A stretch of 64,000 nucleotides of DNA, taken from assembly GCA_951406725.2 (NCBI GenBank), contig OX597837.1, positions 42,098,001-42,162,000 on the forward strand, in the 5' to 3' direction. The notes beneath the pieces are model-generated. The model saw nothing but the letters and a program-made list of their open reading frames with translations. It was not told the DNA's origin and made no database searches. This DNA comes from Octopus vulgaris. Lineage: Eukaryota. The translations under genes were made by a program, and so were the position numbers. Every line of letters starts with the position of its first letter. Within the stretch, counting starts at the first letter, position 1. Below are positions 4,558-44,908 of the stretch, piece after piece.

Positions 4558-4605
<48 letters not shown>

Positions 4606-7312: not shown

Positions 7313-7319
7313 ATTTTCA

Positions 7320-7709: not shown

Positions 7710-7783
7710 TGTATGTATGTATGTGTATATATACATACGTACATACATACATATATATATTGAAGAAGAATAGGTTCCTTTAA

Positions 7784-24054: not shown

Positions 24055-24248
24055 ATATGTGACCGCGTGTGTGCCGTTGGCAATTTTTTTCCTCTTTCTT
24101 CCCTTCTCTAGATCTTTCCTCCTCCTACATTTCCGACGAAGAGCTCCGCTCGAAACGTTAAACCCTCCTTCCTTCCTGAGCGTCAAATAATACTATATTT
24201 GTTCCACGTCCTCGCGTTGTTGTGTTTTTTGTGTTTTCATGTTTGGAT

Positions 24249-24254
<6 letters not shown>
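24055..24254 (+). mobile_element. Penelope-like terminal repeat between TA tracts
   Basis: Pyrimidine-rich ~200-bp unit that carries a hammerhead motif. Its downstream ttcctgagcgtcaaataatac..atttgtt resembles the 32128-32320 element. Confidence 0.6.
24130..24162 (+). ncRNA. Minimal type-I hammerhead ribozyme motif (U4C core variant)
   Basis: TTT-CCGACGA-A-GAGC-TCC-GCTC-GAAA-CGTT-AAA: stem I, core, stem II, GAAA, palindromic ACGU stem III and a GUU triplet. Confidence 0.65.
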
Positions 24255-24284
<30 letters not shown>

Positions 24285-24375
24285 TATGAGTGTGTGTTTA
24301 TGTTGATTACATCAGATAAAAACATTTATATACATGCAAGTATAATACATAGGCTTTAGATTATATATATATATA

Positions 24376-24522
24376 TGGTTGGCGTTAAGAAGGGCATCCA
24401 ACTATAGAAACTCTGCCAGATCAGATTTGAGTCTGGTGCAGCCATCTGGTTCGCCAGTCCTCAGTCAAATCGTCCAACACAATATAGCATGGAAAGCGGA
24501 CACTAAACGATGATGATGATGT
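24376..24522 (+). mobile_element. SINE family C, 3' part
   Basis: tggttggcgttaagaagggcatcca...gcatggaaagcggacactaaacgatgatgatgat. Confidence 0.8.
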
Positions 24523-24645
24523 TGAAGTGAATCTAATGGTTTTTGTGTGTTTCTCAAATGGCTTATAAACACCTTCCACGCTGCAATTGTTTTCGTTCCA
24601 GCACACAATCTCAGATCAGGTCACTTGCTATGCAAGTACATCTCC
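24523..24645 (-). repeat. Dispersed repeat of unknown class (second copy at 49142-49275)
   Basis: Reverse complement matches gagatgtact.gcatagcaagtga..tgatctgagat.gtgtgctggaacgaaaacaattgcagcgtggaaggtgttt at 49142. Confidence 0.8.
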
Positions 24646-25231
24646 ATAAATTTACTACATTATCCTATTATGAGGCCTTCATTTCGTAAGACTATAGGAA
24701 GTGGTTTGAGGTGGATTTATCTAGCATTTATAACTGGACATAAAACTACACCAGGATACACTTGTTGGTTTGTGGTTGAATGCCTTTGGGGAGTGAGTTT
24801 GGTTGCTATCTTTAACTGGGCAAGCGATCATGTAAAGGCCTTTGTGGGGGGGGGATCACAGCTGAGTGGATGGGTGACGGCAGCATAGCCAGGGTGATGG
24901 TCAGCCCCTGGTGATGCTTTTATGGAAGTAAAACTTTTGGGTTTGTTGTATAACTCAATAGAAGCATGGAAAAGTCAGTGCTTAATCAACAGGAAGATGA
25001 TGAAATGGTAATGAGTATTTTTAGAATTACATCAGTCCTTCCTCTTGTTAAAGACAGTTGGATATAATATAAGGAAAACTTGACTGCTGTTTCTAACAGA
25101 TCTCAGGACAATACAGAAGACTTTGTCAGCTCCGTCCAAGCAAGAATAGATACTCTGCCTATTGATAGGTAATTATTCACAGCTGTATTCGCCTTGCTAA
25201 CACTCACAAATCTACTACTCTGAAGTGTTAA

Positions 25232-25451
25232 CCCTTTCGTTACTGTATTTATTTTGAGATGCTCTCTGTTTCTTTCAATTACTTTAAATATAACCAAGAA
25301 TTTAGTAAAATAACTTAGTTATCATTCAGCTAGTGTTAGGAACATAAATTGTGACTAAGGTTTGGTGGAAGATTTTAATTCAAAACTTATGAAAACAAGT
25401 CATTTGTATTCAGAGCCAAGGCCAGTTTCAGTCAGGTTGGTAAGGAAAGGG
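25232..25451. mobile_element. TTAA-type MITE, family 2, intact, 220 bp
   Basis: TTAA|CCCTTTCGTTAC ... GTAAGGAAAGGG|TTAA: perfect TTAA TSD and a 12-bp TIR with 1 mismatch. Confidence 0.85.
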
Positions 25452-25954
25452 TTAATGGTCCATGCTGTGTGTGTGAGAGAGAGGGAGAGGGGAGAGGGAA
25501 GTGGGTAAACAAATATATATATATATCCTAATATTTATAGGGGAGTCTGAACACATGGTGGTTGAATGAAGTATCAGAGTCAGTGACCTATCACCCTAAC
25601 AATTAATCCCTCCAACATCACGGCCACTCCTACCACCTACTCCTTATTAACAAGTTCCTCTCATTAATTAAACATTGTGTTGACAGCCATGGATGGGATA
25701 TTAGGGTCAGTTCGATTGGAATACAAACATTAGCAGGAGTTTGGTTTATATTAGCATCACGACCCCTCTCTCCCTGCTCTCTTTCAGGCTGGCTGTCAGG
25801 AAAATATCCCAGCAGCCTTTAAGTAGGATTGGTCAGATCCAGATAATTACGAAGTTATTAATTAATTACCCTATGAACAAAAACAAAAACAAAAAAAAAG
25901 ACAAAAAATAGAGAGGGGAAAAAGAAAATATTGCTGTGTTTGCATGCAAATGCT

Positions 25955-25992
<38 letters not shown>

Positions 25993-27007
25993 ACACAAAC
26001 TGGATAATTACTGACTCAGCTAATAAAGACCAGCAAATAGCATGTGTCCACAAGGGACTCGTACAATTGCGGGAAATTTTAATACTGACAAATGAGGTCA
26101 GCATAACAGCATAATACCATTTGAAAAGATATTTGTCTAGGAAATTGTATTCATTTCATGCATATTGAAACAAGAATGAAATAGGTAAAGATTTCTGAAC
26201 ATGATTTGCGTAATTAAAAGGTACTTGCAATGTTTTACAAGCTTTGAAAGTGGACTGCTGCCATCTACCTGGCAGACAGGTAGATGAGCAAACAAAAGGA
26301 TGAAGCGCATTGAGTCTTCGTGAGAAGCAGTCAGCGAGCGCTAGATGTTGATTCGTAATGGTAGTAGATCTTGGTGTAGCAATATGAACTCTGATATGAT
26401 GGTCAGTGTTTGCAAACAACCGAGAATAAAATTGCAGAGGAAAGATAGGGGAAAAAAAAAAAAAAAAAAAAAAAGAAAGGAAAGAAAATGTTTGTAAAGC
26501 TACACAGTATGATAGACAGGTAAAACAGCTAAATTGATTAAATCGAAGTCTGTGTTGCTTTGATTATTCAAAAGATGGGGAGGGGAACTCTTGTAAATGC
26601 AGTAGCAATTAGTTTCAGATCATCAGAAATGATTGAACTGCAGAAGAGAAGAGGAGGTGGTAAGGGTGGGGGGAGGAAATGAGTCTCACTGGCGTGGCTG
26701 CAACGAATTGGTTGAATCGGTGGGAACGGAGGTAAGCATACATGATGAAATCAGAGTTGGGAACTGTAACAGGGATTCTGGAGGAATGTTGATGATTGGG
26801 GGTGGGGTGGAGGGGACAACTGTTTGGGTGCTGAGGATTTGACACGGTTGACTGGACATTCAGCTTGTTTTTGGAGGCAGTGCTTTTTTGGAATGGGGGA
26901 AAAAGCACACACATATGCATGTGTGTGTGTGCAGAAATACACACACACACACATATATATATATATAGAGAGAGAGAGGGAGGGAGAGATAATTATTAAT
27001 AGAACAT

Positions 27008-27241
27008 GGGCGGTGAGCTGGCAGAAACGTTAGCACGCCGGGCGAAATGTTTAGCGGTATTTCGTCTACCGCTACGTTCTGAGTTCAAATTCCGCCGAGG
27101 TCGATTTTGCCTTTCATCCTTTCAGGGTCGATTAAATAAGTACCAGTTATGCACTGGGGTCGATATATAATCGACTTAATCCATTTGTCTGTCCTTGTTT
27201 GTCCCCTGTATATTTAGCCCCTTGTGAGTAGTAAAGAAATA
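27008..27241 (+). mobile_element. SINE family B, near-intact
   Basis: gggcggtgagctggcagaaacgttagcacgccgggcgaaat...gagttcaaattccgccgaggtcga...ccccttgtgagtagtaaagaaata. Confidence 0.9.
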
Positions 27242-27469
27242 TATTGATAGAACCTGATTGACAAACATTTTGCTTCACCTCATATACATAAACATAGAGA
27301 CAGACAGACAGATAGAGAGAAATGTTAAAGTAACAGAAATATTGGCTTCAAATTAGGGCTCAAAGCCATCAATTTTCAGGGAAGGTGGAGTGAGTTGATT
27401 ACTGGTACTTATTTTACTGACCCCCAAAGTCGACCTCAACGAAGCTTGAACTCATAACGTAAAGAGGGA

Positions 27470-27610
27470 AGAAATTTCCCCAAGACACCTGATGAAGGCT
27501 GGAGGATATATCAGCCGAAATGTTGTGTTAACAACAAACAAGATGAGGATAAATATCCCTCAAATGTAAATAATGTACATAATTCCTCATCTCTTAAATT
27601 ATAGAACTGT
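27470..27610 (+). mobile_element. Single arm of the hammerhead-bearing Penelope-like repeat (family of 42821-43255)
   Basis: Aligns with 43115-43255, including the end aattcctcatctcttaaa.tatagaactg. Confidence 0.85.
27485..27528 (+). ncRNA. Minimal type-I hammerhead ribozyme motif
   Basis: ACAC-CTGATGA-A-GGCTG-(10 nt)-CAGCC-GAAA-TGTT-GTGT, with a C>T change in stem III. Confidence 0.7.
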
Positions 27611-28306
27611 ATTTACATTTAGTTGAACTTTTCATTTTGCCTTTAATGCAAATTTACACACATAAAATCACTTATCTTTTTAAATAGATAGATGGATGGA
27701 TGGATTGTTTTTATATTTGGATTGTAAGATTCTTGATGTAAGTGTCAGTGTTGGAACAGATATTGTAGCTTGGGAGGGTCATTATGGCTATAATTATCAC
27801 ATGGAATGATTCTAAAAAGTAATAAAAGAAGTGAAACAGAACCAGTGCATGTGTTTATTATTGGCATTATGACCCTCCCAAGATACAATACATACATGTG
27901 TGTGTGTGTGTGTATGAAGGGCAGTTAGGATGTTGCACTCACAATCACATGATTGTGATTTTAATTCCTAGACAGGTGTAGCGTTCTTCATTTCCCCTTG
28001 CTCCACTCCATCCAACAGTAAATGGCTAACCCTGCAACAGACTGGTGCTCTGTTCAGAGGGCATCATTCTAAAGGTACAACAATGCAAAGAAGTGCATTG
28101 TGACCAGCGATGTATAACAACATCCGATTGATACAGTGATATATATGTGCGCACAAAGTGATATATATGTGCGTGGGCATAAAATTTATTCTTGAGGTCT
28201 TCCTTCATCACCTGACATTCTATCAGTTTTATAACATGGCCAATATAAGGGTAGGGGAAAATATTTTCATAAATTTTGTAATATAACACATAAGCACATG
28301 CAATGT

Positions 28307-28344
<38 letters not shown>

Positions 28345-28812
28345 ATAGTTTCCAATATTGAAAAATGCCATTCAACAGAATTTTTGTTTTTTTAAATAGT
28401 AATTTTAGAAAGTGTTAAAATTTCTTTTCTTTTTTTTTGTTTTTGTTTTTCTCTGTTGCGAATAAAAATTCGTAAAATTTTATTAATCTTTTAGAAACAC
28501 AACTTAATTGATTCCTTTAATTAAATTATAGCTTACATCTGAAGAGAGAAAAAGTGAAACACAGTTCACAATGGATTTAAAGGGAAATTAAAAACAAAAA
28601 CAAAAATTTCAACAAAAAATATAAAATAACAGCAGAAAACGACAACAAATGATAAACCTAGGTCGCTTAGGCATTTTGTATTAATTTAGAAATAAATAAG
28701 ATTTCATTTGGAAATTGAAATAAGGTTGTATTTACTTACTGTGTTAAACCTGTTAATCCAAAAATTGAGACATAAGCTAAGAGGACAGCCTGGAAATAAA
28801 ATAAAGAAAATT

Positions 28813-28852
<40 letters not shown>

Positions 28853-29074
28853 TAATAGAAGAATGTGAATTTATTTTTCAAAAATTAAAATTAAGAAAAA
28901 AAAATAACAAATTTTTTTGTTTTTTAAATCAATTTACAAAATCTTAAATCTTTGGGAATTCAGAGTTTGCAAATATTTAGCGATGGAAAATAAGATAAAT
29001 GATTTTAATTTAATTTCGAAAACAGGATGAAAAAAAAAAGTTGTTTTTTTTTTTTTGAAAGAAAAAAAAAATAT

Positions 29075-29110
<36 letters not shown>

Positions 29111-29571
29111 TGATGATAATGTTGATGATTAGAACAAAAACAATTCTTCTTAGCTTTGATGAAAAAATTTTGTTCTTTTCAAAGAAATGTTTTATCATAC
29201 ATACACATTTGTGTGTGTGTGTGTATGAATTTATATATTCATATATATATGTATGTATATGTGTGTATATATTATTTGTGTGGTGTGTGTATGAGTATGT
29301 GTGGTATGTATGTAATGATAAAATATAATTTTAAATAAAGATTTCCAAAAAATAACGGAAAGAAAAAATTGCAACCATCAATATTTTAAGGAGACAATAA
29401 ATGTGGTGGGCAAATATGGATGGGCAAAATAGCACTAATGTGAAAGAATATAGCGTGAACACTTTCTTGGGAATCAGAGGATAATTAGAATGCAGAACAT
29501 GGCAAATATAAAACACTACTTTGATATTTTTAATGATATCTTGTTATTTATAAATAATTCTCCACTTAATG

Positions 29572-29716
29572 CGAGAGAGAGAGAGAGAGAGAGGAAGAGA
29601 GAGAGAAGGAGAGAAAGAGAAGGAGAGAGAGAAAAGGAGAGATAGAGAAAAGGAGAGAGAGAGAGGAGAGTAAGAGGAGAGAGAGAGAAAGAGAGAAAGA
29701 GAGAGAGAGGAGAGAA

Positions 29717-29788
<72 letters not shown>
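29572..29788. repeat. Long (GA)n polypurine tract
   Basis: ~215 bp of almost pure purine on the + strand. Confidence 0.95.
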
Positions 29789-29791
<3 letters not shown>

Positions 29792-30009
29792 GTTTGCATG
29801 TGTTTCCTTATATAAAAGTAAATAATTTATTGATGATTATTTTTGTGTAGCCCCATGGTTAGCTCTGGTCAAGCTGATCTATAGTATGAGGTGTGAGTGA
29901 CCCAAAGACTTGGTTTTCCAGATAACATCCAGTCTCCCGCTATCTGAAGAATTTAGTTATGATGTTGAAGAACTACAAGGAAAATCAGGGTTACAAAATG
30001 ACGGCTTGT

Positions 30010-30670
30010 TGATTAACCAGCATCACAACCGCCAAACAAACATCGCAACAACTAAACCAACATCAAAACAGCTAAGCCAACATCACAATCCAATAAGTAA
30101 GTCAACATCACAACCACCTAACCAATGTTGCAATCACCAATCCAACATCACAACTGTCAAACCAACATCTCAGTTATAAATCAATCATTACGATCACTAA
30201 ACAAGTATCACAACTACTCATCCAACATTACAGCCACCAGTGCTACATCATGACCAGCTAAGCAACGTCACAACCGACAAATCAACATCACAATTGTCAA
30301 ACCAACATCTCAATTATAAATCTAACGTTACAATCACTAAACAAGCATCACAACTACTCATCCAACATTACAGCCACCAGTGCTACATCACGACCAGCTA
30401 AGCAACATCACAACCGACAAATCAACATCACAACCAATAATCTAACATCACAACTGTCAAGCCAACGTCTCAATTATGAATCCAACATTACAATCACTAA
30501 ACAAGCATCACAACTACTCATCCAACTCATCCAACATCACAGCCACCAGTGCTACATCACAACCAGCTAAGCAACATCACAACCAACAAATCAACATCAC
30601 AACCAATAATCCAACATCACAGCTGGTAAACCAGCATCACAACTTAACTAACATCACAACTAATACCACT
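30010..30670. repeat. Degenerate ~15-bp minisatellite (CAACATCACAAC core) with higher-order repeats
   Basis: caactactcatccaac recurs at 30211, 30351 and 30511, and acagccaccagtgctacatca occurs three times. Confidence 0.85.
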
Positions 30671-30948
30671 ATAAATTGTACTGGTATTTTCTCCAAACTC
30701 GTTACCAAAACTAACTTCAGTCGAACAAATGTTTATTATTATAATCAGAAAGCACAAGATATTAATGATGTATTAATTATCTGCTTAATATGGTATGTAT
30801 TATAGTTGTATTAATCTTAACTATGGCATGTAATCAAAGACATGACTGAAATATTTCACTTAATGAAACAAGTTAAAATGTTATGGTTTCAATAATAAGC
30901 TTCGTTATGGAAGGAAATCAAAGACATAATTGAAATCTTTAACATAAT

Positions 30949-31357
30949 GGCGCAGGGGAGGCTGTGTGGCAAGTAGCTTGCTAACCAACCACATGGTTCC
31001 GGGTTCAGTCCGACTGCGTGGCACCTTGGGCAAGTGTCTTCTGCTATAGCCCCGGGCCGACCAAAGCCTTGTGAGTGGATTTGGTAGACGGAAACTGAAA
31101 GAAGCCTGTCGTATATATGCATATATATATATATATGTATGTGTGTGTATATGTTTGTGTGTCTGTGTTTGTCCCCCTAGCATCGCTTGATGACCGATGT
31201 TGGTGTGTTTACGTCCCCGTCACTTAGCGGTTCGGCAAAAAGAGACCGATAGAATAAGTACTGGGCTTACAAAGAATAAGTCCCGGGGTCGATTTGCTCG
31301 ACTAAAGGCGGTGCTCCAGCATGGCCGCAGTCAAATGACTAAGAGTAAAAGAGTAAA
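30949..31357 (+). mobile_element. SINE family A
   Basis: Full head to tail, with a possible short TSD ATAATG. Confidence 0.9.
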
Positions 31358-31437
31358 TAATGAAACAACTTTGAATCTTATAATAAAGTATAGTATAGCT
31401 TAGCTATGGAATGAAGTTGTTGACATAACTGAAATAG

Positions 31438-31833
31438 TTAATATATAGAAGTGAAGTTGTGTGTCTGTCTCCTACGAGTTAGATTCCTAACTACTCCCAC
31501 ATTTTGCGGTGCAGTTTAACCAAAACCGGGTATCTGATAGTCGTGATTCATATCAAGCCCTTTTGGGTATTAGCGCATGTCTACGATGAGTCTACGATTT
31601 AAAAAAAAATTTACCATCATTTTTTTCCATTTTAATGCATTTTTTCGCTATTATATAAGGGAGGTAACTCTCTAAAAATGTCTACGATGAGTCAACGATT
31701 TAAAAAAAAAATTACCATAATTTTTTCCCCATTTTTAATGCATTTTTTTGCTATTTTTTGGCTATAACTCTCTAAAAATGCTTATATAGTTATTTCCCTT
31801 ACAAACCCGAGCAACGCCGGGCGATACTGCTAG
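31438..31833 (+). mobile_element. Non-autonomous Helitron with an internal ~100-bp duplication
   Basis: 3' GC hairpin CCCGAGCAACGCCGGG followed by ...CTAG|T. Homologous to 49939-50247. Confidence 0.85.
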
Positions 31834-32127
31834 TTGCTAATATAATGAAACAATGTTATGAAGGTCTATGGAACAATGTAGAAATAAGAACAATTTAAAA
31901 AATCTGGAATTCCTATAGGTGTCACTTAATTGGTTTAACATGCTCCTTTTCTTTGTCAACGTGGTTTCAATGGGTCCAGCTGTTGTTCTTATTTAATCCC
32001 AAGTCAGTCTCTGAGCTGGCAGACCTGTGATCTAAGAATTCTTTAGCCTTAATCATACCATATCTTTCACATATTTTTCATCGTAGTTCATGTAGTAAAT
32101 ATCATATATACATATATATATATATAC

Positions 32128-32320
32128 AGGACGCCATGATAGATCATTAGCTCCTACACACATTTTTTCTCTCCTTGTTTTTTCTGTGTCCCTTTCTGTC
32201 GAAGAGCGTAGGCTCGAAACGTAAAAGACTTTTTCTATTCCTGAGCACTATACTAATACATTTGTTTGTTTGTACTCCATCTGCCTTCGTCTTTTGTTTA
32301 TTTTCATAAACTTTCCCTTC
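32128..32320 (+). mobile_element. Penelope-like terminal repeat flanked by TA tracts
   Basis: A second copy lies at 1-74. Contains a hammerhead-shaped motif at 32192-32227. Confidence 0.65.
32192..32227 (+). ncRNA. Hammerhead-like motif with non-canonical core (A6U)
   Basis: CTTT-CTGTCGA-A-GAGC-GTAG-GCTC-GAAA-CGTA-AAAG. All stems are intact and the triplet is GUA. Confidence 0.55.
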
Positions 32321-33031
32321 ATATAAATACATATATATATATGTGGATGTGGATGTTTATATTTTTTTGATAACATAATAGGTTAGAGGGGGTGATGTCT
32401 ATATTACAATAACCAATAATACGTTGTACATGTATAGTAATATTACGATCATGAAACTAGCATTAGTTTATCTCACTTTTTCTCATGGTACCCCAGGGGT
32501 CTGGGGAACCCCAGTTGAAAAATGCTGCTCTATCTGCTAGACATAGTAGTTAAATGTCTTTCCTGTATAGTACAACAGAAAACATGAGAGAGAGAGAGAG
32601 AGTATGGAAGGTTAAAAAAAAATTAAGCAATTAACGAATCATCCTCATCATGACTAACATCATGTTCTCACCCTATGCTTGTATCCGTACATCCAAAGAT
32701 CCTACAAGGTATGTAAAAGACAGGTGCACAAAAAAAATGTGATTTTTAAAAAATGCAAATTTTTATTTAAAAAAAACAAAACAAACAAATTGAGAAAATG
32801 TAAGCAGAATTTTCAGATGTGCAATAAACAAGATTGGTATTCTAATTTTACTATTTCTGCGGCAACAATAAAACAATTTCTTTCTCTTTCCTCCCTTTTT
32901 GATGTTACCGAAAATTATTTTCCAGTTAAGCGAACTATTATCCGTTAGCTATGTAACTTCTATTATACTTGCAAACAGATTTCCTTTCTGCAACATAGTT
33001 ACAAAAAAGTAGTTTCCAGGTAACTGTGAAT

Positions 33032-33066
<35 letters not shown>

Positions 33067-33269
33067 GGGAGGTTATTTATTAATGGAAAAAAGGAATTCT
33101 CTCTCTCTCCCTCTGAAACAATGAGTACAGCACTCAGTATGGTGTTCGTGAATTATGTTCTTTTGTAATCAGAAAACTGTTCACAAGAATAAGATAAAAT
33201 ATGGAAAAAAAAGTTACATATTAATGATTTTTTTTTTCTTTTACCATGAATACATATATACAACTATCT

Positions 33270-33300
<31 letters not shown>

Positions 33301-33303
33301 CAC

Positions 33304-33336
<33 letters not shown>

Positions 33337-33482
33337 TATATATATACATGCAAATACACATAACACACCTACACTTATACATACATATATACACATATAC
33401 ACACATGTAACACACCTGTACTTATACATATGTATATACACACATTTATACATACACAAAAAACTATATGTGTATACATATA

Positions 33483-33515
<33 letters not shown>

Positions 33516-34104
33516 GTATGTATATGTATACACATATATTTGTATATGTATATACACATATATATATATATGTATATGTATACAGACACATACACACATA
33601 TATATATATACACACAAAAATATATACATACATATACACACATATATACATACATGTATGTACGCATATTTGTGGCACACAATCTCTCATTCATACCTCT
33701 ACCCCTATAAGCACAATCACGACTACATTCAAATCATAAAAAAAAGGGGTTTAAAAAAGAAAGAAAAAAACCCAAACAACAACACAAAAGAAAAGCAAGA
33801 GTTCTTCTTTGAGACACAGCATATTGAAACATGACTAAAGCGTATTTTTATCACACACTCTCTCGGTATTTTGGAGTCTTGTGTTTCAAATTATACTACT
33901 GGCTGTTTGGCCTTGGCCTACCTCATCTCATGTGTTGTGATGACATTTTCTATCTGATATTGATGACACAAGCTGAAGCTGGAAGCGGTCGGTTCCTGCT
34001 AATGTAGCAGAATTGATAGTTCTGCATTTTGCCTCGTTTTTTTGTGTCTGCTGAAAACTGGGTTATTATTTCTCCTTCTTTTATTTATTCATTATCATTA
34101 CCAC

Positions 34105-34152
<48 letters not shown>

Positions 34153-34447
34153 TGTTCTTTTTTTTGAAAGTAGACAATTTCTACTGTTTTCAATGATTAT
34201 CGCTAATAGATAATTTCGTACGTTTTTTTTTTTTTTGCTTTTTTTTTGGTATTTTTATAGATTTCTCTCTTATTTTTTTTTTCTTTTTTTTCCTTTTTTA
34301 CGTGAACATTCAAAAATACATACAAACGATGCAATCAGACACTGAGTGTGGCTTAGACACGTTTTGCAAATGTAGGTTATATATTCATGTACTACACTCG
34401 TTACTACAACCTGAGATTTTTCATCAAAACAACCGACATAGCATATA

Positions 34448-35043
34448 TATTTCTTTATTGCCCACAAGGGGCTAAACATAGAGGGGACAAACAAGGACAG
34501 ACGAACAGATTAAGTCAATTACATCGACTCCAGTTCGTAACTGGTACTTAATTTATCGACCCCGAAAGGATGAAAGACAAAGTCGACCTCGGCAGAATTT
34601 TAACTCAGAACATAACAGCAGACGAAATACCTATTTCTTTATTGCCCACTAGGGGCTAAACATAGAGGGGACAAACAAGGACAGACGAACAGATTAAGTC
34701 AATTACATCGACTCCAGTGCGTAACTGGTACTTAATTTATCGACCCCGAAAGGATGAAAGACAAAGTCGACCTCGGCAGAATTTGAACTCAGAACGTAAC
34801 AGCAGACGAAATACCTATTTCTTTATTGCCCACAAGGGGCTAAACATAGAGGGGACAAACAAGGACAGACAAATGGATTAAGTCAATTACATTGACTCCA
34901 GTGCGTAACTGGTACTTAATTTATCGACCCCGAAAGGATGTAAGGCAAAGTCGACCTCGGCAGAATTTGAACTCAGAATGTAACGGTAGACGAAATACGG
35001 CTACGCATTTCGCCCGGCGTGCTAACGTTTCTGCCAGCTCGCC
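34448..35043 (-). mobile_element. SINE family B with one 5' end and three tandem ~183-bp bodies
   Basis: Units start at 34448, 34632 and 34815 (tatttctttattgcccac). Only the last extends into the 5' end (...gctaacgtttctgccagctcgcc). Confidence 0.9.
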
Positions 35044-35883
35044 ATATAACTAAAGTGTTGCCTATTCAAACATTATATGAGTGATTGCTTAATCCCAGGT
35101 AAGCCCTGACTAGTTTCTGTTGTGGGTGGGAAGTCATCAAGTATTTAGGACATCAAATGCATTCTTTGTTTCTTTTACAATAAGGTGTAATTAGAGGAAG
35201 ATTTGACAGCTATTGTTTATCAGACTTAGCAAAGCAATAAGCACAGTGCTCAAGACCCTTCACAGGATCTACAAGATGAGTGGCATGATGCAGGGGGGAA
35301 AGTTTTTCTCTAAACTGGAAGCCACACCTGAATGCTAGCAACAGAGTAGACTCCAGTAAAGGCACAAATGGTGCCAGGTGCATTGGAAACTGGTGAGAGT
35401 TGGCAACAGGAAGGGCATCCAGCCACAGAAAGCTGGCCTCATCAAATTCCTTCTAACCCATGCAAGCACTGAAAGGTGGACATATGGTGATGATGATGAC
35501 GATGATGAATAAAAATAGTAGCATGATAGAATGTACCCAGCCCATGCTGTAGATGGTTGGTAATGGGAAAGGTGCCCCTACATATGTAAAAATCATGCCA
35601 GGGAAAGAAGTAACAAAGACGTGGACTATGCAAACTAGAATAAAAGAAACTTGTTTAAGAGAGCAGTAACACTCTGAAAGCTGACATATGGTGGAGGGGA
35701 CTCTTTATTTCTAACATTGATAACCTCTTTAATGCCTATAGCACAGAGGACAGAGAACTTTTATAACCAATTACCCCAAAATTTATTTATCTATACCAAT
35801 GCTACCCCCTCGATTTGAAAGGAAGAAAATCATAGGTTCTTTGAATTCAAAAGGTGTATTGAATCTATTTATTTAGAGAATAA

Positions 35884-35935
35884 TGGCGGTGCCCCAGCAT
35901 GGCCACAGCTCATGAGCTGAAACTAGATGAAAAAA
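35884..35935 (+). mobile_element. Isolated CR1-type 3' tail
   Basis: ggcggtgccccagcatggccacagctcatgagctgaaactag, homologous to 60377-60415. Confidence 0.7.
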
Positions 35936-36397
35936 AAAAGTACAAGTATAAATGTAAAAAGTATAAACAAATGCGATAAAATAAATCAATATCCTCATTA
36001 TGAAACAAAAGGATTTTTCTAGAAACTTTTTCACTTTTGGAGAAATTATGTTTCATTTTTGTTACAATTACATCAAAATTGGGGCATTTTGATGCCAGAG
36101 CAATTTGGAGACAGTCTCTGGGGTCCAATCGATTTTGTTAAAGGGTCGAATTAAATAACTACTCAAATCTACTTCAAGCAAAAATGTGTGTTAAAAAATA
36201 AGGTTAAGGCGAGTAATAGACAACTGATAAATAATATCTGTTTAGTCATTTGATAATGACTTAGTAACCAAATTGTTTGTAGTTCAAAATGGTTTGATGT
36301 CTCCTAAGCATGCCCATTACATTGCGCAGATGCAGTGCTGCTGGAAGAAAAATTTCTGTCGCAACAAGGAACATGTTTTTTTATATAATATTACTTA

Positions 36398-36633
36398 TGT
36401 CGGTGGCACGTAAAAAGCACCATTCGATCGTGGCTGTTTGCAAGCCTCGTCTGGCACGTAAAAAGCACCCACTACACTCATGGAGTGGTTGGCATTAGGA
36501 AGGGCATCCAGCCGTAGAAACACTGCCAGATCAGACTGGGCCTGGTGCAGCCTTCTGGCTTCCCACACCCCAGTTGAACTGTCCAACCAATGCTAGCATG
36601 GAAAACAGACGTTAAACAATGATGATGATGATG
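36398..36633 (+). mobile_element. SINE family C
   Basis: ggtggcacgtaaaaagcacc units, ggttggcattaggaagggcatccagcc and a (GAT)n tail. Confidence 0.85.
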
Positions 36634-37540
36634 AGTCCTCATTACTCATAAAAATTTCATTTTTACCCCACTTGGGGTAGTTTACCCTGGTTTGATGACT
36701 CCTGCTTCATTTGTACCACTGACAAATTCTTTAATGCCAGTAGCACAATAAAACATGCAGGGTAGACATGATATGGGAGGATGAACAGAGCGGAGGAAAA
36801 GTGGGGTGAGTCGGTGAGGAGACAGTGTAATGTGTTGACAAAATATTGGACAATATTTTATAGTTTTAACAGTAAAATAGAAAGTAAAACTCCAAAGGTT
36901 GAAAAGAAAAAAAGACCAGACAATAACTCGACCAAAATAAAACTATAGTCATGCTTTCAAAACACACACACACACACACACACAAATGCATACATTCTCT
37001 CTCCGTACTTATTCTCAGTAAAACTAATTTTTATATAGATTTGCTTTTCCTGAAGATGAAAAAAAAAAAAAAAAAGCAACTACACACACATGTACACAAT
37101 GTATATACACATACATACAGACTTATACAATAAAGTTTTGACTACATCAAATAGTTTTTGTATTTTAAATGTGTTTGTTTGGCAGGTTTTGTAGTTGAGA
37201 CCGTAATATATAAAATTGTCTCATTAAACTGATTGCTTAAAAACTGATAAAATGCGAAGCTATCACAATATATGTTGTTTCAGGTTAAAATGAAATTAAC
37301 ACTCCACACTATACCCATGTATTGAGTTCTTCAAACTTCATTTATTTTTATGTAGATCCATATATGTGTGTGCATGCATGTTTTTATGTCAAGTTACATA
37401 TGAAAACAATAAAGCAATTAAACATTATCATGAAGAACTATTCAATACTTTTCAGTAGACATGTTTGTTCAACTTTTACAAGTAGAGAGGTGACTGACTT
37501 CAAAGTTCTGGCTTGATAGCCTTCATCAGATTGTCCATCA

Positions 37541-37941
37541 TTTACTTACTCTTTTACTTGTTTCAGTGATGTGTGTGTGGCCATGCTGGAGCACCGCCTT
37601 TAGTCGAGCAAATCGACCCCACGACTTATTCTTTGTAAGCCTAGTACTTATTCCATCGGTCTCTTTTGCCGAACCGCTAAGTTACGGGGACGTAAACACA
37701 CCAGCATCGATTGTCAAGCGATGTTGGTGGGGACAAACACAGACACACACACACATATATATACGTATACATGTATACGACGGGCTTCTTTCAGTTTCCG
37801 TCTACCAAATCCACTCACAAGGCTTTGATCGGCTCGAGGCTATAGTAGAAGACACTTTCCCAAGGTGCCATGCAGTGGGACTGAACCTGGAAGCATGTGG
37901 TTGGTAAGCAAGCTACTTACCACACAGCCACTCCTACGCCT
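37541..37941 (-). mobile_element. SINE family A
   Basis: Full-length copy alignable to 1749-2176. Confidence 0.9.
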
Positions 37942-38016
37942 ACTTGTAAAAGTTTAATAATAATAATAATCATTTCTACTGTAGGCACAAGTTCTGAGAT
38001 TTGAAGAATTAATTAT

Positions 38017-38074
<58 letters not shown>

Positions 38075-38614
38075 TGTACGAGCCAGAAAAAAAGAAAGAA
38101 AGAAGCATGGTGATTTAGAAGTATTCTTTTAAACAGAATACTTTCTAATCATTCCTGATCAATGTATTCGAACCACGGAATGGTCTTGCTTCTTCCACCA
38201 TTTCCTAACTGTGTCTGTTCTATCTTTTCAACAATGGCTGTCTCAAAATTTGGAGCACAGCAAAATATAACATAATACATATATTTTATTTTTTTGGCTT
38301 TTGGCTTCATTTGAATTTCATATGAGCTAACGACCACACTGAATTCTTTACCACATCAGGTGACATTCATTAAAATATAGAAAATGAAATATTCTTCAAA
38401 TACATTGAGTAAAACTATATAATTTGATATATGCGGCTTTTAATGAGGATTTTTAATATCTTTATTCATGAAACAAGTGTATATTGTCTGAACAATAAAC
38501 TGTTTTATATTGTGTTTGTTAATCAAGAAGAAATGAGAGAAAGTTAACTTTGTCGACAGTTAATCTGCTTTTAATTGTTTTTTTGTTTTTTTTTTGCTTA
38601 TTTTAATTACTCGT

Positions 38615-39960
38615 ATGCAGGTGCAAGCATGGCTGTGTTATTAATAACTGTGCTTTTTAAATCATGCAGTTCTGAGTTCAATACCTATGTGTGCCACTTC
38701 AGGGGTATGTATTCAACTGTAGCTTTGGATTGACCAATGTTTTGTTAACTTACTCATTTACTTGTTTCAGTCATTTGACTGTGGCCATGCTGGAGCACCG
38801 CCTTTTTTTAGTTGAGGAAATCAACCCCAGGACTTATTCTTTGTAAGCCTAGTACTTATTCAATTGGTCTCTTTTGCCGAACTGCTAAGTTACGGGACTT
38901 GTAAATCATGTAAATGAAACCAGTGTGGAAAACCATTTTGCTATTAATAACTGTGTTTTTTAATCATGCAGTTCTGAGTTTAATACCTATGTGTGCCACC
39001 TCAGGGGTATGTATTCAACTGTAGCTTTGGAGTGACCAATGTTTTGTTAACTTACTCATTTACTCGTTTCAGTCATTTGACTGTGGCCATGCTGGAGCAC
39101 CGCCTTTTTTAGTTGAGGAAATCGACCCCAGGACTTTTTCTTTGTAAGCCTAGTACTTATTCAATTGGTCTCTTTTGCCGAACTGCTAAGTTACGGGGAC
39201 TTGTAAATCTTGTAAATGAAACCAGTGTGGAAAACCATTTTGCTATTAATAACTGTGTTTTTTTAATCATGCAGTTCTGAGTTCAATACTTATGTGTGCC
39301 ACTTCAGGGGTATGAATTCAACTGTAGCTTTGGACAGATCAATGTTTTGTAAACTTGTAAATCTTGTAAATGAAACCAATGAAGAAAACCATTTTGTTTG
39401 TCAGTCTGACTTATTCTATTGGTCTCTTTTGCCGAACTGCTAAGTTACGGGACTTGTAAATCATGTAAATGAAACCAGTGTGGAAAACCATTTTGCTATT
39501 AATAACTGTGTTTTTTAATCATGCAGTTCTGAGTTCAATACCTATGTGTGCCACCTCAGGGGTATGTATTCAACTGTAGCTTTGGATTGACCAATGTTTT
39601 GTTAACTTACTCATTTACTTGTTTCAGTCATTTGACTGTGGCCATGCTAGAGCACCGCCTTTAGTCAAGGAAATCGACCCCAGGTCTTATTCTTTGTAAG
39701 CCTAGTACTTATTCTATTGGTCTCTTTTGCCGAACTGCTAAGTTACAGGGACTTGTAAATCTTGTAAATGAAACCATTGTGGAAAACCATTTTGCTATTA
39801 ATAACTGTGTTTTTTAATCATGCAGTTCTGAGTTCAATACTTATGTGTGCCACTTCAGGGGTATGTATTCGACTGTAGCTTTGGAGTGACGAATGTTTTG
39901 TAAACTTGTAAATCTTGTAAATGAAACCAATGAAGAAAACCATTTTGTTTGTCAGTCTGA
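38615..39960. repeat. Young tandem array of ~250-300-bp chimeric SINE-derived units
   Basis: The anchor attaataactgtg occurs at ~38640, 38944, 39245, 39498 and 39798. Units combine a decayed + strand family-A head with a - strand family-A tail. Confidence 0.9.
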
Positions 39961-40844
39961 CTGTGTGTATGTATGCATGTGTGCATGTGTGTGTATGTAT
40001 GCATGTATAATGACAAAAGCAAGCAGGCCAAAACTGTCAACCCCCATCTACTTTTACCAATTAAAAAATATTTCTGTTGTTTTTGTAAAATCTCAGAAAA
40101 TAATTAAAAATTCACATTTTTTATCAAATTATTTTGTTATATTTGTCTATCTATCCAACTGTAAACATTTTAAATATTTCACTAACTTTTGTTATAACTT
40201 GGTAAAAGGGTATTTAAAAGCATTGAGTAGCTCTTCAGCTTGATGTTTGATTTATATATAAGTAAAAGACAAACACAAATATACACATATACACATGTAT
40301 GTGTGCATGTACAACATGTGTGTATGTACGGGTAGTTAAGATCAATCCACAAAATCGTGGCAAATATTTCCATGATGGCACCTGATACTAGCATCATGTT
40401 TCCGAGATAATGGCAAGTAAATCCCTAAGGTTTCTTACAACAGAAAAAACCATACATTTCCATTATTTCAAACTTACAGATACATCTTAGTTCAACAAAT
40501 CTTATCAGTCACTTAGTCCGGTGGCCAACTGTTTCTGATATTTCTACAAATCTTTAAAAGAATGACAACGACAACTGATTTCCTTTAGAATCAGGGTTTA
40601 ATGTAACCAACCACAAAGGGCCTATATTTTAGAGTAAAAGTAAGAAATGGGATATGGAAATTTTTGTGACCCTTCCCAGGAGGATTAGCCAAGTGTCAGT
40701 CTCAACATAACAGAAGGTTATTTCTCTCTTTATAACACTTAGTAATAATGATTTCTAGGGGTGGATATAAGGCCTCAAATCTGGAGCATCATATTTAATT
40801 ACATCAACCCTAGTGGTTGGTTCGTCAACATTTTTCTGTAAGGA

Positions 40845-41069
40845 GTAAAGAGCTGATTTCCTGGTTCCTCTGGTGTATATATATTCCTCCCTGGACGGGA
40901 TGCCGGTCTGTTGCAGGGTTACTAATTTTTACCAGCTGAGTAGACTGGAGTGATGTGAAATGAAGTGTTTTACTCAAGAACAAAATGCATCGCCTGGTCC
41001 AGAAATTGAAACCACAATCTTACAATCATGAATCTGAACACCCTAACCACTAAGCCATGTGCCTCCACA
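40845..41069 (-). mobile_element. SINE family D
   Basis: Aligns to the 17590-17844 unit (ccctggacggga.gcc.gtc...ccctaaccactaagcca.g.gcctccac). Confidence 0.8.
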
Positions 41070-41452
41070 ACCCCAGTGATTGGTAATTATTTTATCAACC
41101 CTTGAGGGATGAAAAGCAAAGTTGGCCTGCGAGGGATTTCAACTCAGAATAAAAAGAATTAGTGAAAATATTGCATGGCTCTTGCCAATCCACCACGCTA
41201 AGTGTTTATGAAAAATAATTGTTTCATATTTAATAATTTTTTTCTACTGTAGGCAAAGGCTGGGGATTTCTATCTGGGGGAGCTAGTGGATTACCCCAAG
41301 GCCAGTGCTCAACTGGTACTCATTTTATCAGTCCTGAAATGACAAAAGGCAACGTTGACCATGTCAGAATTTGAAATCAGTGTGCAAAGAAGCAAAAGAA
41401 ATGCTGCAAAACATTTTGTCTGATGCACGAACAATTCTGCCAGCTTGTTGCC

Positions 41453-41513
<61 letters not shown>

Positions 41514-41514
<1 letters not shown>

Positions 41515-41720
41515 CCTTTCTGCTAAAGGCACAAGATCTGAAATTTGTGGGGGGAAGGGACTAGTTGATTACATCGACCCCAGTGTTTCACTGGTACTTA
41601 ATTTATCGACCCCGAGAGGATGAAAGGCAAAGTTGAGCTTGGTGGAATTTGAACTTGGAACACTAAGGATTGACACTAAGCATTTCGTCAGGCATGCTAA
41701 TGATTTTGCCAACTCACTGC
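41514..41720 (-). mobile_element. SINE family B (with further decayed copies at 41070-41450)
   Basis: gattacatcgaccccagtgtttcactggtacttaatttatcgaccccgagaggatgaaaggcaaag, flanked by (AAT)n. Confidence 0.75.
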
Positions 41721-41721
41721 C

Positions 41722-41779
<58 letters not shown>

Positions 41780-42431
41780 TAAAAGTAACAACAATAATAA
41801 TAATAATGATAAATATCTAAAACAACTGAAAATTCTCCCTATGACAAAAACTAAAACAAAATTATAATTCATTTTTCGAAAGATTGAAATAAGAGAGAAA
41901 AAGATGACACTCACACCGGCATACTTAAAAACTGAGAAAGTAATAAAATAAAATAAGATAAAATAAAAAGAAATAACAAATATTTTGATGAAAGAAAAAG
42001 AACTCAATAAATACAATAAAAGTTTAAAAAAATAAAAACTAGGGTAAATAGCATGTGAGAGAAGATAATCTAATTAAACAAATGTTAAAAATATTAGATA
42101 ATATACTTAAATTGAATTACTTAATTTATATACAAGCAGTTACTCTGATGGCAACTTTCACTGACATGAATATTAAAAGAAGAAAAAAAAACTAAGATTA
42201 TGTGAAAAGCATCGAGAGATAGAGAGGAGAAGAGGGAAGAAGAGACAGAGTGAAAGAGTGAGAGGAGAAGGAAGAGGAGGAGACAACAAACGGAGAAAAA
42301 GAGAGAGAAATGAAAGAGGCAAAAATCATAATTTATTTATCATAGAAAAAGTTCTTCATGAACAAAGTCTGTTTATCCAACAATTATTATCATTATTATT
42401 ATTATTATTATCATCATTATTATTATTATTA

Positions 42432-42468
<37 letters not shown>

Positions 42469-42867
42469 GATTATTATTATTATCATATGGAAATTTCTGT
42501 TGTCACAAAATATGTGATGCTTGAGTATTCATTCACGGTGAGGGGCAGGCATGGCTGCGTGGTTAAAGAAGGTTGCTTTTTCACAATGTGTCCTGTCTTT
42601 GCTCTTAAAAGACAGTAGGCTGTAATTTGAGGGACATTTGGCTGCTATGTATGCAACAGCTTCAGCAACCATCATTATTACTCGTTATTAACCCTTTAGT
42701 GTTTAAACCAGCCATAACCAGCCCAAATATTCCGTGTGTTTTATACTAAAACTGACCAGATCCAACCTCTTGTACCTACCCTACAATGTCATTCTAAAAA
42801 TAAACAACCACATCATTGAACATTATTTACATTTGACAGATATTTGTCCTCATCTTGTTTGTTGTTA

Positions 42868-42911
42868 ACACAACATTTCGGCTGATATACCCTCCAGCCT
42901 TCTTCAGGTGT
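42868..42911 (-). ncRNA. Minimal type-I hammerhead ribozyme motif
   Basis: Minus strand ACAC-CTGAAGA-A-GGCTG-gagggtatat-CAGCC-GAAA-TGTT-GTGT. Confidence 0.7.
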
Positions 42912-42963
42912 CTTGGGGAAATTTCAAACCTGAGTTCTCATTCCTAAGGTATTTTTCGATGTC

Positions 42964-43018
<55 letters not shown>

Positions 43019-43046
43019 CAAGTTCGATTCCAGGCAGTGACTGAAT

Positions 43047-43082
<36 letters not shown>

Positions 43083-43131
43083 TTTGAAAAATACCTTAGG
43101 AATGAGAACCCAGATTTGAAATTCCCCCAAT

Positions 43132-43175
43132 ACACCTGATGAAGGCTGGAGGGTATATCAGCCGAAACGTTGTGT
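43132..43175 (+). ncRNA. Minimal type-I hammerhead ribozyme motif, canonical core
   Basis: ACAC-CTGATGA-A-GGCTG-gagggtatat-CAGCC-GAAA-CGTT-GTGT. Predicted cleavage is after GUU (43171). Confidence 0.8.
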
Positions 43176-44908
43176 TAACAACAAACAAGATGAGGACAGA
43201 TATCTGTCAAATGTAAATAATGTAAATAATTCCTTGTCTCTTAAATATAAAACTGCACATCATTGAAATCTTGAAAGTAGGAGATAATGCATGATTAATA
43301 AGGTAAGTAAAAAAAACCATTACCTTTGACAAGGTGGTAACCTGGTGCAATTGTAACTATGCCAAACACAATGCTGAGGAGCATTTTTTTTCCAGGTCTT
43401 TACATTCTCAGGTCAAATATCACCAAGGTTGACTTTACCCTTTCATCTTTACAGTTTCAATAAAAGAAGTACCAGTTGAATACTGGGGTTGATGCAATCA
43501 ATCAACTCCCTTCCCCTTAAAATTACTCCCCTTATGCCTAAAATTAGAGAGGATTATTACTCACTGTTGTTTTTTTTTTTGTGGCTGTCAGATTTTCTTT
43601 AGCCCTCCGTCAGCTCTGACCATGCAGACTTGAAATCATGAGCAAAAGCATTTCAGCCATGACCATCCTGTCTTTCTTATTTCTATACACAGACTATATT
43701 TTCTTTGAGGTCTCCTTTCTTTACATAAACCAGTAGCTAGCTGATAATGTAAGGGAAAGTTGGTTGCTATTTCTAGCAAGTTGAATGGCCATATGAGGGC
43801 ACTTCTCTTTGTGGGTGTTATAAATGTGGTACCGAGTTCTTTGGTGAAAAGCAGCATTTCCAATCCAGTTTTAATTTGCAATAATTACTTCGCTCAGCTG
43901 CTACTGTCTCTAAGAAACTGCACAAGCATCCAGTTTCCTATGTCAATCCTTTCCTCTAACTTATAATTCCATCCCACCGAAAAAAAAAAAAAAATAAATA
44001 ATTTTCTGCTTATGTAACAATAGAATAAAATTTTAAAAAATCATCATCATCATCATCATCAATTATTATTGTTATTATAATTATCAGTATCAACCTCTTC
44101 CTAATTATAATCAATACCGTCATCATCATCACTGACTCCACTGCCATTGTCATCAACACCCACACCATCATCGTCAATACCACCATCACCACCACCACCA
44201 CTACTACTGCCATCACCACTACCACTACCACCACCACCACCACCATCCTCGCTGCCACCGCCACCTTTATTACATTATCTACTTTTAACTGAATTCAGTC
44301 AGATCCTTTCCTTTCCTTTCCTTCTTAAATTTATTTAAGCACTGGAATACTTTCCTCTCAAACTGTCAAATCTTTCCCTTCCCGCTTCAGTGCTGCACTG
44401 TCTTTCTCTCTTCTTTCACTTCACACCCTGCTGCCGCCCACCCACACTCTCAGATCTACACCACATACACACACATAAACACGCGCACGCGTGTGTGTAC
44501 ATATGTGCGCACGCGTGCACGTACACGTATACACCTTTGTATGAAAACGCTATTATTAAGTGCTAAGACGTGTTCAGGATTGCCATGAAAGGCCATATGA
44601 AATAATTGAATTATCTGAAAGCTTGTCAACAATGATTATAAATTTCATTTCTTGTCAGATTCCATTCTTGAAGAAAATAGATTCACTGAACAAAAATAAA
44701 AACAAACAAACAAAAACAAACAAAAACAAACAAACAAACAAACAGTCGAATGAATAAATAAATAAATAAATAAATAAGAATCCATTAACAGAATAATTTG
44801 ATTTAGCCTTTCTGATGCCTTGTCAGTTTATATTCCCGTCCTCTGAAAAGGCAACTGTTGCCGCCAAATCTGTTATTCAATGCAATGGGATTCTCGATGG
44901 ATTTCCAC

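What the first reader, a model, noticed from the sequence alone, without database searches (positions are those of the whole stretch)
24130..43175. At least three repeat families share one minimal hammerhead architecture with covarying stems
Seen: motifs at 24130, 27485, 32192, 42868 and 43132 all read stemI-CYGWNGA-A-stemII-GAAA-YGTW-stemI'. Stem I varies (TTT/AAA, CTTT/AAAG, ACAC/GTGT) and stem II varies (GAGC/GCTC, GGCTG/CAGCC), yet pairing is always kept. All have an extra A after A9 and a loopless ACGU-type stem III. Inference: structure is conserved across divergent families, and five to six motifs in 64 kb would imply a very large genomic hammerhead population if this window is typical.
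Basis: partly seen in the sequence, partly recalled or inferred. Interest (0 to 1): 0.75.

Follow-up and report, generated by a model that had tools for sequence, protein, structure and literature searches.

The report
Penelope retroelement ends carrying minimal hammerheads
The five motifs are real copies of a known small hammerhead RNA fold that sits at the ends of Penelope-type jumping genes and occurs at over 50,000 places in this animal genome; the one unusual point is that two of the three families carry a changed catalytic-core letter, which likely makes them slow cutters, though cutting is untested.

Summary
All five motifs are real: 5 hits, against 0 of 300 global and 1 of 300 block shuffles with any hit. 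The layout (extra base after A9, loopless palindromic stem III, covarying stems, many families) is the minimal type I hammerhead that Cervera and De la Pena (2014) described in Penelope-like element (PLE) ends. The motifs come from four insertions of three families. 42907 and 43136 are one inverted pair inside a 12-bp target duplication. Each family is the 3' end of a coding PLE: A is Poseidon-like, B and C are related and Neptune-like. The genome holds 52,903 pattern matches against 56 in the control, so the window is about four times denser than average. Of 90 copies picked by their tail, 84 run through the ribozyme and 1 starts at the cut site, so inserted RNA was mostly uncut. Unusual: A6U (16,723 copies) marks nearly all of family C and U4C (about 6,600) dominates family B, while the rest of the fold is kept. 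Activity is untested. This scan noted the same elements, and A6U, before on other DNA.

The parts
24059..24250 (+). Family B copy: about 190-nt 3' end (pLTR) of a Neptune-like PLE, lodged in (TA)n
   Evidence: Profile match 24054-24259, E 5e-62. Family links to an RT/GIY-YIG ORF 1.9-3.4 kb upstream of the hammerhead in L350.
24130..24162 (+). Minimal type I hammerhead, core CCGACGA (U4C), predicted cut after 24159
   Evidence: C4 in 26 of 29 tail-selected copies that have the core.
27471..27609 (+). Family A copy, 5'-truncated 18 nt before the core, with the full 3' tail
27484..27529 (+). Minimal type I hammerhead, canonical core CUGAUGA, stem III AUGU (likely CpG decay), predicted cut after 27524
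32129..32318 (+). Family C copy: about 190-nt 3' end (pLTR) of a Neptune-like PLE, lodged in (TA)n
   Evidence: Profile match E 8e-47. Family links to an RT-CxxxxCxxC-GIY-YIG ORF in L169.
32192..32227 (+). Minimal type I hammerhead, core CUGUCGA (A6U), predicted cut after 32223
   Evidence: U6 in 29 of 29 tail-selected copies that have the position, one ambiguous.
42809..42820 (+). Target-site duplication, left copy (CACATCATTGAA)
   Evidence: The rebuilt empty site matches an uninterrupted repeat copy near 10585-10672.
42821..43017 (-). Family A inverted copy, 5'-truncated within (AAT)n, lacking the last 30-nt tail
   Evidence: (arm pair I16, 93% complementary)
42867..42912 (-). Minimal type I hammerhead, core CUGAAGA, predicted cut after 42872
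43018..43255 (+). Family A copy: B-box half of a tRNA-like head, (AAT)n, body, hammerhead, full tail; 3' end of a Poseidon-like PLE
43022..43031 (+). B-box-like motif (GTTCGATTCC) of the family's tRNA-like head; box consensus recalled
   Evidence: The full head with an A box is seen in other copies. No tRNA call by ARAGORN or Rfam.
43132..43175 (+). Minimal type I hammerhead, canonical core CUGAUGA, predicted cut after 43171
   Evidence: 955 exact copies of this 44-mer versus 0 control.
43256..43267 (+). Target-site duplication, right copy
1..65 (-). Leader of a further family C copy whose hammerhead (CUGUGGA) lies just beyond the window edge

Best explanation
The five motifs are minimal type I hammerhead folds carried in the 3' ends (pseudo-LTRs) of three families of Penelope-like retrotransposons, left as short truncated copies that likely cannot cut on their own. 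Shown: each family links to a reverse transcriptase plus GIY-YIG coding region in longer copies; the 42.8-43.3 kb pair is one insertion with a target duplication; inserted copies mostly run through the ribozyme. Inferred: the element's protein nicks AT-rich DNA, starts reverse transcription in the tail about 90-110 nt past the cut site, and copies an uncut RNA backwards. In B and C the copy usually stops about 100-115 nt upstream of the cut site, probably at the RNA's start. Inferred: cutting needs two same-family hammerheads paired through the ACGU palindrome, as in tandem transcripts, probably with help from the element's protein, and trims long precursor RNAs. Selection acts on the few master elements; most genomic copies are passengers. 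The U4C and A6U cores are most likely slowed but still constrained versions.
For: Architecture matches the 2014 minimal hammerhead point by point. Family A: a GIY-YIG-type ORF end stops 7 nt before the shared 50-nt stretch leading into the tRNA-like head in 6 of 30 loci (L135, L137, L139, L140, L156, L157), with further ORF pieces in L024 and L013 and RVT_1 at E 1.2e-9 in L161. Family C: L169 holds RT motif, CxxxxCxxC linker, GIY-YIG, a 0.8-kb UTR and the hammerhead, as a partial tandem (GIY-YIG E 4.9e-4, under cut-off). Family B: L350 matches the C protein at E 8e-37, 1.9-2.6 kb upstream of the hammerhead. PLE hallmarks: an inverted upstream copy in 12 of 30 family A loci, tail at one end only and a 12-bp duplication in the window, (TA)n targets for B and C. 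84 of 90 tail-selected copies extend upstream of the core and 1 of 90 starts within 3 nt of the cut. This fits the anole PLE, where uncut RNA is the main template and cutting needs protein (PMC11167929). Constraint in the A6U lineage: four subfamilies differ at 95 of 755 flank positions but only at N7 and N17 in the 36-nt motif; G17 is 135 versus 16,723.
Against: No cleavage was measured, and no raw RNA reads were on hand. I found no full pLTR-ORF-pLTR copy for any of the three families, so the 5' pile-up as a transcription start is inferred. Clade names rest on one linker motif (PMC8557442), not on a tree with reference proteins. Pfam gave no hit on the two L350 frames or on a shorter L169 piece. 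Same-strand neighbours within 1.5 kb are rare (0 of 32 B/C loci; 1 of 30 A loci), so cis dimers are possible only in few loci. Mutations in the CUGA turn gave low activity in a mutational scan (PMC9901934), so the variant cores may be dead. Most copies in the constraint test were found with patterns that fix much of the motif, which inflates its apparent conservation.
Confidence: 0.82

Rival explanations
1. The fold is kept as a binding or positioning site for the PLE protein and no longer needs to cut. A6U and U4C are loss-of-catalysis changes, and uncut RNA is the better template.
For: Catalytic mutants did not reduce insertion in vitro (PMC11167929). 86% of B/C matches have a variant core (23,290 of 26,997). 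U4C sits in the youngest B subfamily, nested among canonical ones. Copies are made from uncut RNA.
Against: G8, G12, C3, the A15.1-U16.1 pair and the ban on G17 are all kept in the A6U lineage while N7 varies freely, which is the pattern of a cutting hammerhead. A canonical-core group of 3 copies is nested within the A6U lineage. U4C supports viroid infectivity (PMC3088659). This rival concerns the function step only; it shares the PLE origin.
Confidence: 0.3
2. The short copies are independent non-autonomous elements (SINE-like or retrozyme-like) with their own promoter, mobilised in trans by PLE proteins.
For: Sharp 5' ends in B (21 of 30 between -114 and -101) and C (15 of 30 between -116 and -102). 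In family A, about 10 distinct loci of the 19 rows with a full head (60 rows examined) begin at the tRNA-like head (reclassified by eye).
Against: The same sequences continue into coding PLEs. No head-to-tail arrays in 32 B/C loci. No tRNA call. At most a subset of family A behaves as a SINE.
Confidence: 0.12
3. The motifs are host-domesticated regulatory ribozymes that cut host transcripts, alone or as cross-family dimers.
For: High density; family C is held by contigs of runs guessed to be RNA.
Against: Copies decay at CpG sites like neutral repeats (CpG columns 4-19% mismatch). Stem I arms do not match across A and B/C. The inverted pair would fold back over about 180 bp and hide its hammerhead. 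No host gene was recognised in 17 of the window's 101 long frames that I scanned.
Confidence: 0.04
4. Chance matches in low-complexity DNA.
For: The window is rich in microsatellites.
Against: Shuffles and the genome control, 56 versus 52,903.
Confidence: 0.01

Closest known systems
Minimal type I hammerheads in pLTRs of animal PLEs (Cervera and De la Pena 2014, PMC4209133; read parts 1-2 of 4 and supplement PDF parts 1-2 of 3)
   Same: Type I, extra base between 9 and 10.1, G10.1-C11.1, palindromic 15.2-16.2 with no loop, short stem I, many covarying families per genome, mostly solo truncated copies, inverted pairs 100-700 bp apart.
   Different: None of the representatives that I read in their Fig. 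S3 (the text of the 56-row alignment) has A6U or U4C, though their descriptor fixed the core. Counts here (over 50,000) exceed their 2,000-9,000 per genome. No cephalopod is listed.
Poseidon_Ac of the green anole (Frangieh et al. 2024, PMC11167929; read parts 1-2 of 4)
   Same: Hammerhead in the pLTR, internal start of reverse transcription, tail at some ends only, AT-rich targets, uncut RNA as main template, no RNA reads ending at the cut site.
   Different: Tested in vitro; these families are not. Family A has a tRNA-like head and (AAT)n. B and C are Neptune-like with variant cores.
Neptune/Nematis PLE clades (Craig et al. 2021, PMC8557442; passages)
   Same: CX2-5CxxC linker before GIY-YIG, microsatellite targets, heavy 5' truncation, hammerhead near the 3' end.
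   Different: Clade not confirmed by a tree. Core variants are not mentioned in the passages seen.
Natural core variants U4C (viroid) and A6C (phage Bcep176) (Perreault et al. 2011, PMC3088659; section 8 and passages)
   Same: Same positions; low but detectable activity reported.
   Different: Those are single RNAs. Here the variants mark thousands of copies, and the change at 6 is to U.
Animal non-LTR retrozymes (PMC7229834, passages; bioRxiv 10.64898/2026.07.22.740005, part 1 of 5 and passages)
   Same: Type I hammerheads in high copy (126,247 in axolotl), linked to PLEs.
   Different: Retrozymes are non-coding tandem units with circular RNAs. These families are dispersed ends of coding elements.

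Membership tests
Minimal type I hammerhead of PLE pLTRs | Type I order: stem I, core, stem II, GAAA, stem III, N17, stem I | tested here: met
   5 of 5 motifs
Minimal type I hammerhead of PLE pLTRs | Loopless palindromic stem III; extra base before 10.1; G10.1-C11.1 | tested here: met
   5 of 5; two have AUGU, which pairs with G-U wobbles
Minimal type I hammerhead of PLE pLTRs | Core CUGANGA (or U3-A8) | tested here: inconclusive
   Met by the 3 family A motifs. Not met by B (U4C) or C (A6U), where the change is family-wide. B and C are core variants, not strict members.
Minimal type I hammerhead of PLE pLTRs | Stem pairing kept across families with different letters | tested here: met
   41 of 42 versus 102 of 252; 2 of 5040 permutations; 7 of 10 clusters used; R-scape not available
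Minimal type I hammerhead of PLE pLTRs | Self-cleavage as a dimer | not testable with these tools
   Needs a bench assay
EN+ Penelope-like element | RT followed by C-terminal GIY-YIG upstream of the terminal repeat | tested here: met
   A. C. B. Seen in other genomic copies, not in the window (tblastn of 6 PLE protein pieces against the window gave nothing).
EN+ Penelope-like element | 5' truncation, inverted 5' copies, partial tandems, tail at one end | tested here: met
EN+ Penelope-like element | Full pLTR-ORF-pLTR unit | tested here: inconclusive
   Only truncated or frameshifted copies among the long stretches fetched
Neptune/Nematis clade (B, C) versus Penelope/Poseidon (A) | CX2-5CxxC linker present or absent | tested here: met
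   Present in L169 and L350; absent before the GIY-YIG-type motif of A
Neptune/Nematis clade (B, C) versus Penelope/Poseidon (A) | RT phylogeny with reference elements | not tested
   No reference PLE proteins were fetched
Non-LTR retrozyme | Non-coding head-to-tail tandem units | tested here: not met
   0 of 32 B/C and 1 of 30 A loci have a same-strand copy within 1.5 kb; families continue into ORFs
tRNA-derived SINE (family A) | tRNA-related head with A and B boxes | tested here: inconclusive
   A box in 12 and B box in 18 of 30 loci (box consensus recalled). ARAGORN 0 of 13 loci; no Rfam tRNA match in L305.
tRNA-derived SINE (family A) | Independent of a coding element | tested here: not met
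   The head follows the ORF stop directly in coding copies

The most novel reading that the evidence does not exclude
A6U is a naturally working, deliberately slow hammerhead core. A Neptune-like lineage has kept it through at least four subfamily radiations and in several related species, under selection for cutting. Slowed cores (A6U, and U4C in the sister lineage) let most RNA stay uncut for reverse transcription, which helped these subfamilies outnumber canonical-core relatives about six to one. Standard CUGANGA searches would then miss most of this lineage's ribozymes.
Probability: 0.3. Interest if true: 0.6.

Novelty: new member of a known kind. Interest (0 to 1): 0.3.

Why it matters
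The finding as posed is a rediscovery of a 2014 result in a new genome. What it adds is a ready test set for an open question, namely what PLE hammerheads do. Sister subfamilies with canonical, U4C and A6U cores exist in one genome in thousands of copies, so cutting rate can be set against copy number and age. It also shows that core-fixed searches undercount: 86% of the B/C matches have a variant core.

Tried and rejected
Rfam: no match at gathering. The E-value scan of the whole window listed only microsatellite-driven families among the 150 of 323 rows shown. Repeat finder on the whole window was swamped by microsatellites. GIY-YIG search: the 30 loci fetched were mostly other PLE families, with no A, B or C hammerhead linked to their ORFs. 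L043 looked like a coding C copy, but its GIY-YIG piece belongs to another PLE and is separated from the C end; dropped as evidence. Long upstream matches in L015, L020 and L025 are ends of other retroelements sharing an (AAT)n junction. Sequencing runs: no RNA holder listed on record, contigs only, so no start, end or cut site could be seen. The MAFFT alignment misplaced stem II, so pairs were counted by script. Minimum-energy folds give stem II and often stem I, never stem III, as expected for a loopless motif. The pile-up of family A 5' ends at -109 is an alignment break at (AAT)n and was not counted as a real end. No clear target duplication for the 24133, 27489 and 32196 copies, which lie in (TA)n or at a truncation. 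Literature: A6U/U4C search, CUGU-word search (15 of 56 listed), octopus searches and a PLE-SINE search showed no report of A6U in PLE hammerheads or of these families. Lunse et al. 2017 (PMC5785218), the paper most likely to list such variants, is not held; I saw only its title in reference lists.
Full report
Observation. The five motifs are at the stated places. A descriptor for a loopless type I hammerhead found exactly these five. 0 of 300 global and 1 of 300 block shuffles gave any hit. Rfam reported nothing at gathering scores. The window is G000:C24:42098001-42162000 in a 2.8-Gb genome. Its repeat make-up is what I recall of octopus; no call established that.

Known architecture. Cervera and De la Pena 2014 (PMC4209133; main text parts 1-2 of 4, supplement parts 1-2 of 3) define a minimal hammerhead in PLE terminal repeats. 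They also report mostly single truncated copies and opposite-strand pairs 100-700 bp apart. A monomer did not cut and dimers cut weakly.

How many families. 27489, 42907 and 43136 are one family, A (90-95% identical). 42907 and 43136 are one insertion: a head-to-head pair between two copies of CACATCATTGAA (42809-42820 and 43256-43267), with the last 30-nt tail on one arm only. The rebuilt empty site matches an uninterrupted repeat near 10585-10672. 24133 (B) and 32196 (C) are distant relatives: same stem II, tails about 55% alike, weak cross-matches of their profiles. So the window holds four insertions, three families and two lineages.

What the families are. Family A: copies run upstream through (AAT)n and a tRNA-like head into a GIY-YIG-type ORF end. 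The frame stops 7 nt before the 50-nt stretch that leads into the head in 6 of 30 loci. L161 gives RVT_1 at E 1.2e-9. There is no cysteine linker, which points to Penelope/Poseidon. An earlier scan note (e1-8669850) moved me from a SINE reading to this one; I tested it. Family C: L169 holds an RT motif, a CxxxxCxxC linker, GIY-YIG, a 0.8-kb pyrimidine-rich UTR and the A6U hammerhead, followed by a second truncated unit. Family B: in L350 a frameshifted ORF that matches the C protein (E 8e-37) lies 1.9-3.4 kb upstream of the U4C hammerhead; L349 and L352 show parts of the same. The linker marks Neptune or Nematis according to Craig et al. 2021 (PMC8557442, passages). I built no tree with reference proteins and found no full-length copy.

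Genome-wide number. The pattern CYGWNGAAG-N8-22-CGAAAYGTH has 52,903 matches against 56 for the reversed control, or 18.9 per Mb. All of the first 100 listed matches belong to the A, B or C lineages; 33 are A by my count. Sampled stretches gave 4 in 400 kb, 2 in 120 kb and 1 in 76 kb beside the window. The count is a lower bound for decayed copies and omits other hammerhead families. It is large but not without precedent: 126,247 type I motifs in axolotl (PMC7229834, passages).

Covariation. A pattern with no pairing demand gave 307 hits in 1.46 Mb of fetched DNA (heavily enriched for A, B and C), forming 10 clusters of two or more copies and 32 singletons. I took one real copy from 7 clusters and left out 3: a sibling of one family, a cluster with a 2-pair stem II and an unpaired 2-copy cluster. 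Own-family arms pair at 41 of 42 positions, cross-family arms at 102 of 252, and 2 of 5040 permutations reach the observed score. This supports structure, but it rests on few independent lineages and is not R-scape.

Is the RNA cut before insertion? I picked 30 copies per family by tail sequence only. 84 of 90 extend upstream of the core and 1 of 90 starts within 3 nt of the cut site. In B, 21 of 30 5' ends lie 101-114 nt upstream of the cut; in C, 15 of 30 lie 102-116 nt upstream. Ends come from local alignments and are approximate. This fits Frangieh et al. 2024 (PMC11167929, parts 1-2 of 4): reverse transcription starts inside the RNA past the hammerhead, uncut RNA is the main template, and the hammerhead cuts only with protein. 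I infer that the short B and C copies are copies of the 5' terminal repeat, running from the tail to the RNA's start.

Dimers. In a double hammerhead the 5' arm of stem I of one RNA pairs with the 3' arm of the other (geometry inferred from the published scheme). Same-family pairs give 3-5 base pairs, B with C gives 3, and A with B or C gives 0-1. Same-strand neighbours are rare. In the inverted pair only one hammerhead is in sense on any transcript, and the arms are 93% complementary over 180 nt. The window's copies are probably inert passengers.

Variant cores. Of 26,997 B/C matches, 16,723 have U6, 3,707 are canonical and 6,567 have C4 by subtraction. In tail-selected copies, C4 is in 26 of 29 B copies and U6 in 29 of 29 C copies, one ambiguous. 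Contigs of public runs, laid at 85% likeness, show no listed change at position 6 of C (6 rows not shown). In B the only listed change inside the motif is C4 to U, at 10-28% of depth. Depth there is no copy number. Four coded species hold family C. On a flank-only tree of 92 of 154 copies (bootstrap not settled), U4C lies in the youngest B group among canonical sisters, and A6U covers nearly all of C with 3 canonical copies nested inside. Tail clusters recover groups with one N7 letter (8 of 8, 28 of 31, 6 of 7). Grouped by N7, four A6U subfamilies differ at 95 of 755 flank positions but only at N7 and N17 in the motif. G17 occurs 135 times, spread over all N7 types, which looks like decay. 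Against this: most of those copies were found by patterns that fix much of the motif. Published data say changes in the CUGA turn lower activity (PMC9901934, passages), with low but detectable activity for A6C and in vivo sufficiency for U4C (PMC3088659, section 8 and passages). I found no report of A6U in PLE hammerheads, but Lunse et al. 2017 is not held and may list it.

Earlier scan notes. e1-8663237 describes the same kind of elements elsewhere in this genome. e1-9559914 describes a fixed A6U core in another genome. They are unchecked AI notes and not independent support.

Verdict. These are new members of a known kind. The residual interest lies in the family-wide A6U and U4C cores, whose activity is untested.

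Noticed in passing
L107, L112, L163 and the list: A young Neptune-like PLE with an open 781-aa frame in at least 17 of 148 listed matches; some copies carry a U3-A8 hammerhead (UUGAUAA, stem III ACAUGU) 0.4-0.9 kb past the stop.
   Followed up: partly
L079, L085 and three more loci: Another minimal hammerhead family with a U3-A8 core (UUGAAAA), an extra G and an AAUU stem III.
   Followed up: no
L061:3082, 3435, 4153 (+): Three identical type I hammerheads with 353- and 718-nt spacing and a CCGG stem III insert: a retrozyme-like tandem.
   Followed up: no
window 43018-43045; L024, L029, L305: Family A's terminal repeat starts with a degenerate tRNA-like head right after the ORF stop; many copies begin at this head, often against an inverted copy, which suggests Pol III transcripts.
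   Followed up: partly
window 43100-43255: In family A a reading frame appears to start at an ATG upstream of the hammerhead and stay open through it and the tail (read by eye), as the anole element's ORF overlaps its hammerhead; the motif may be partly coding.
   Followed up: no
L038, L045/L046: Tail-to-tail inverted pairs of B or C copies sharing one (TA)n run.
   Followed up: no
window 29990-30670: Degenerate 20-nt-period tandem array (family D16).
   Followed up: no
window 2247-2479, 9172-9405, 27009-27244, 34445-35044 and others: Abundant dispersed SINE-like repeat of about 230 nt, with a three-unit tandem at 34445-35044.
   Followed up: no
G000:C1, first 5 Mb versus 5-10 Mb (listing): B/C matches are about four times denser near the chromosome end (about 80 versus 20 of the first 100 listed).
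   Followed up: no
L118 (G000:C30:5219680-5222829): A GIY-YIG exon that looks like a host SLX1-type nuclease (name recalled), not a PLE.
   Followed up: no
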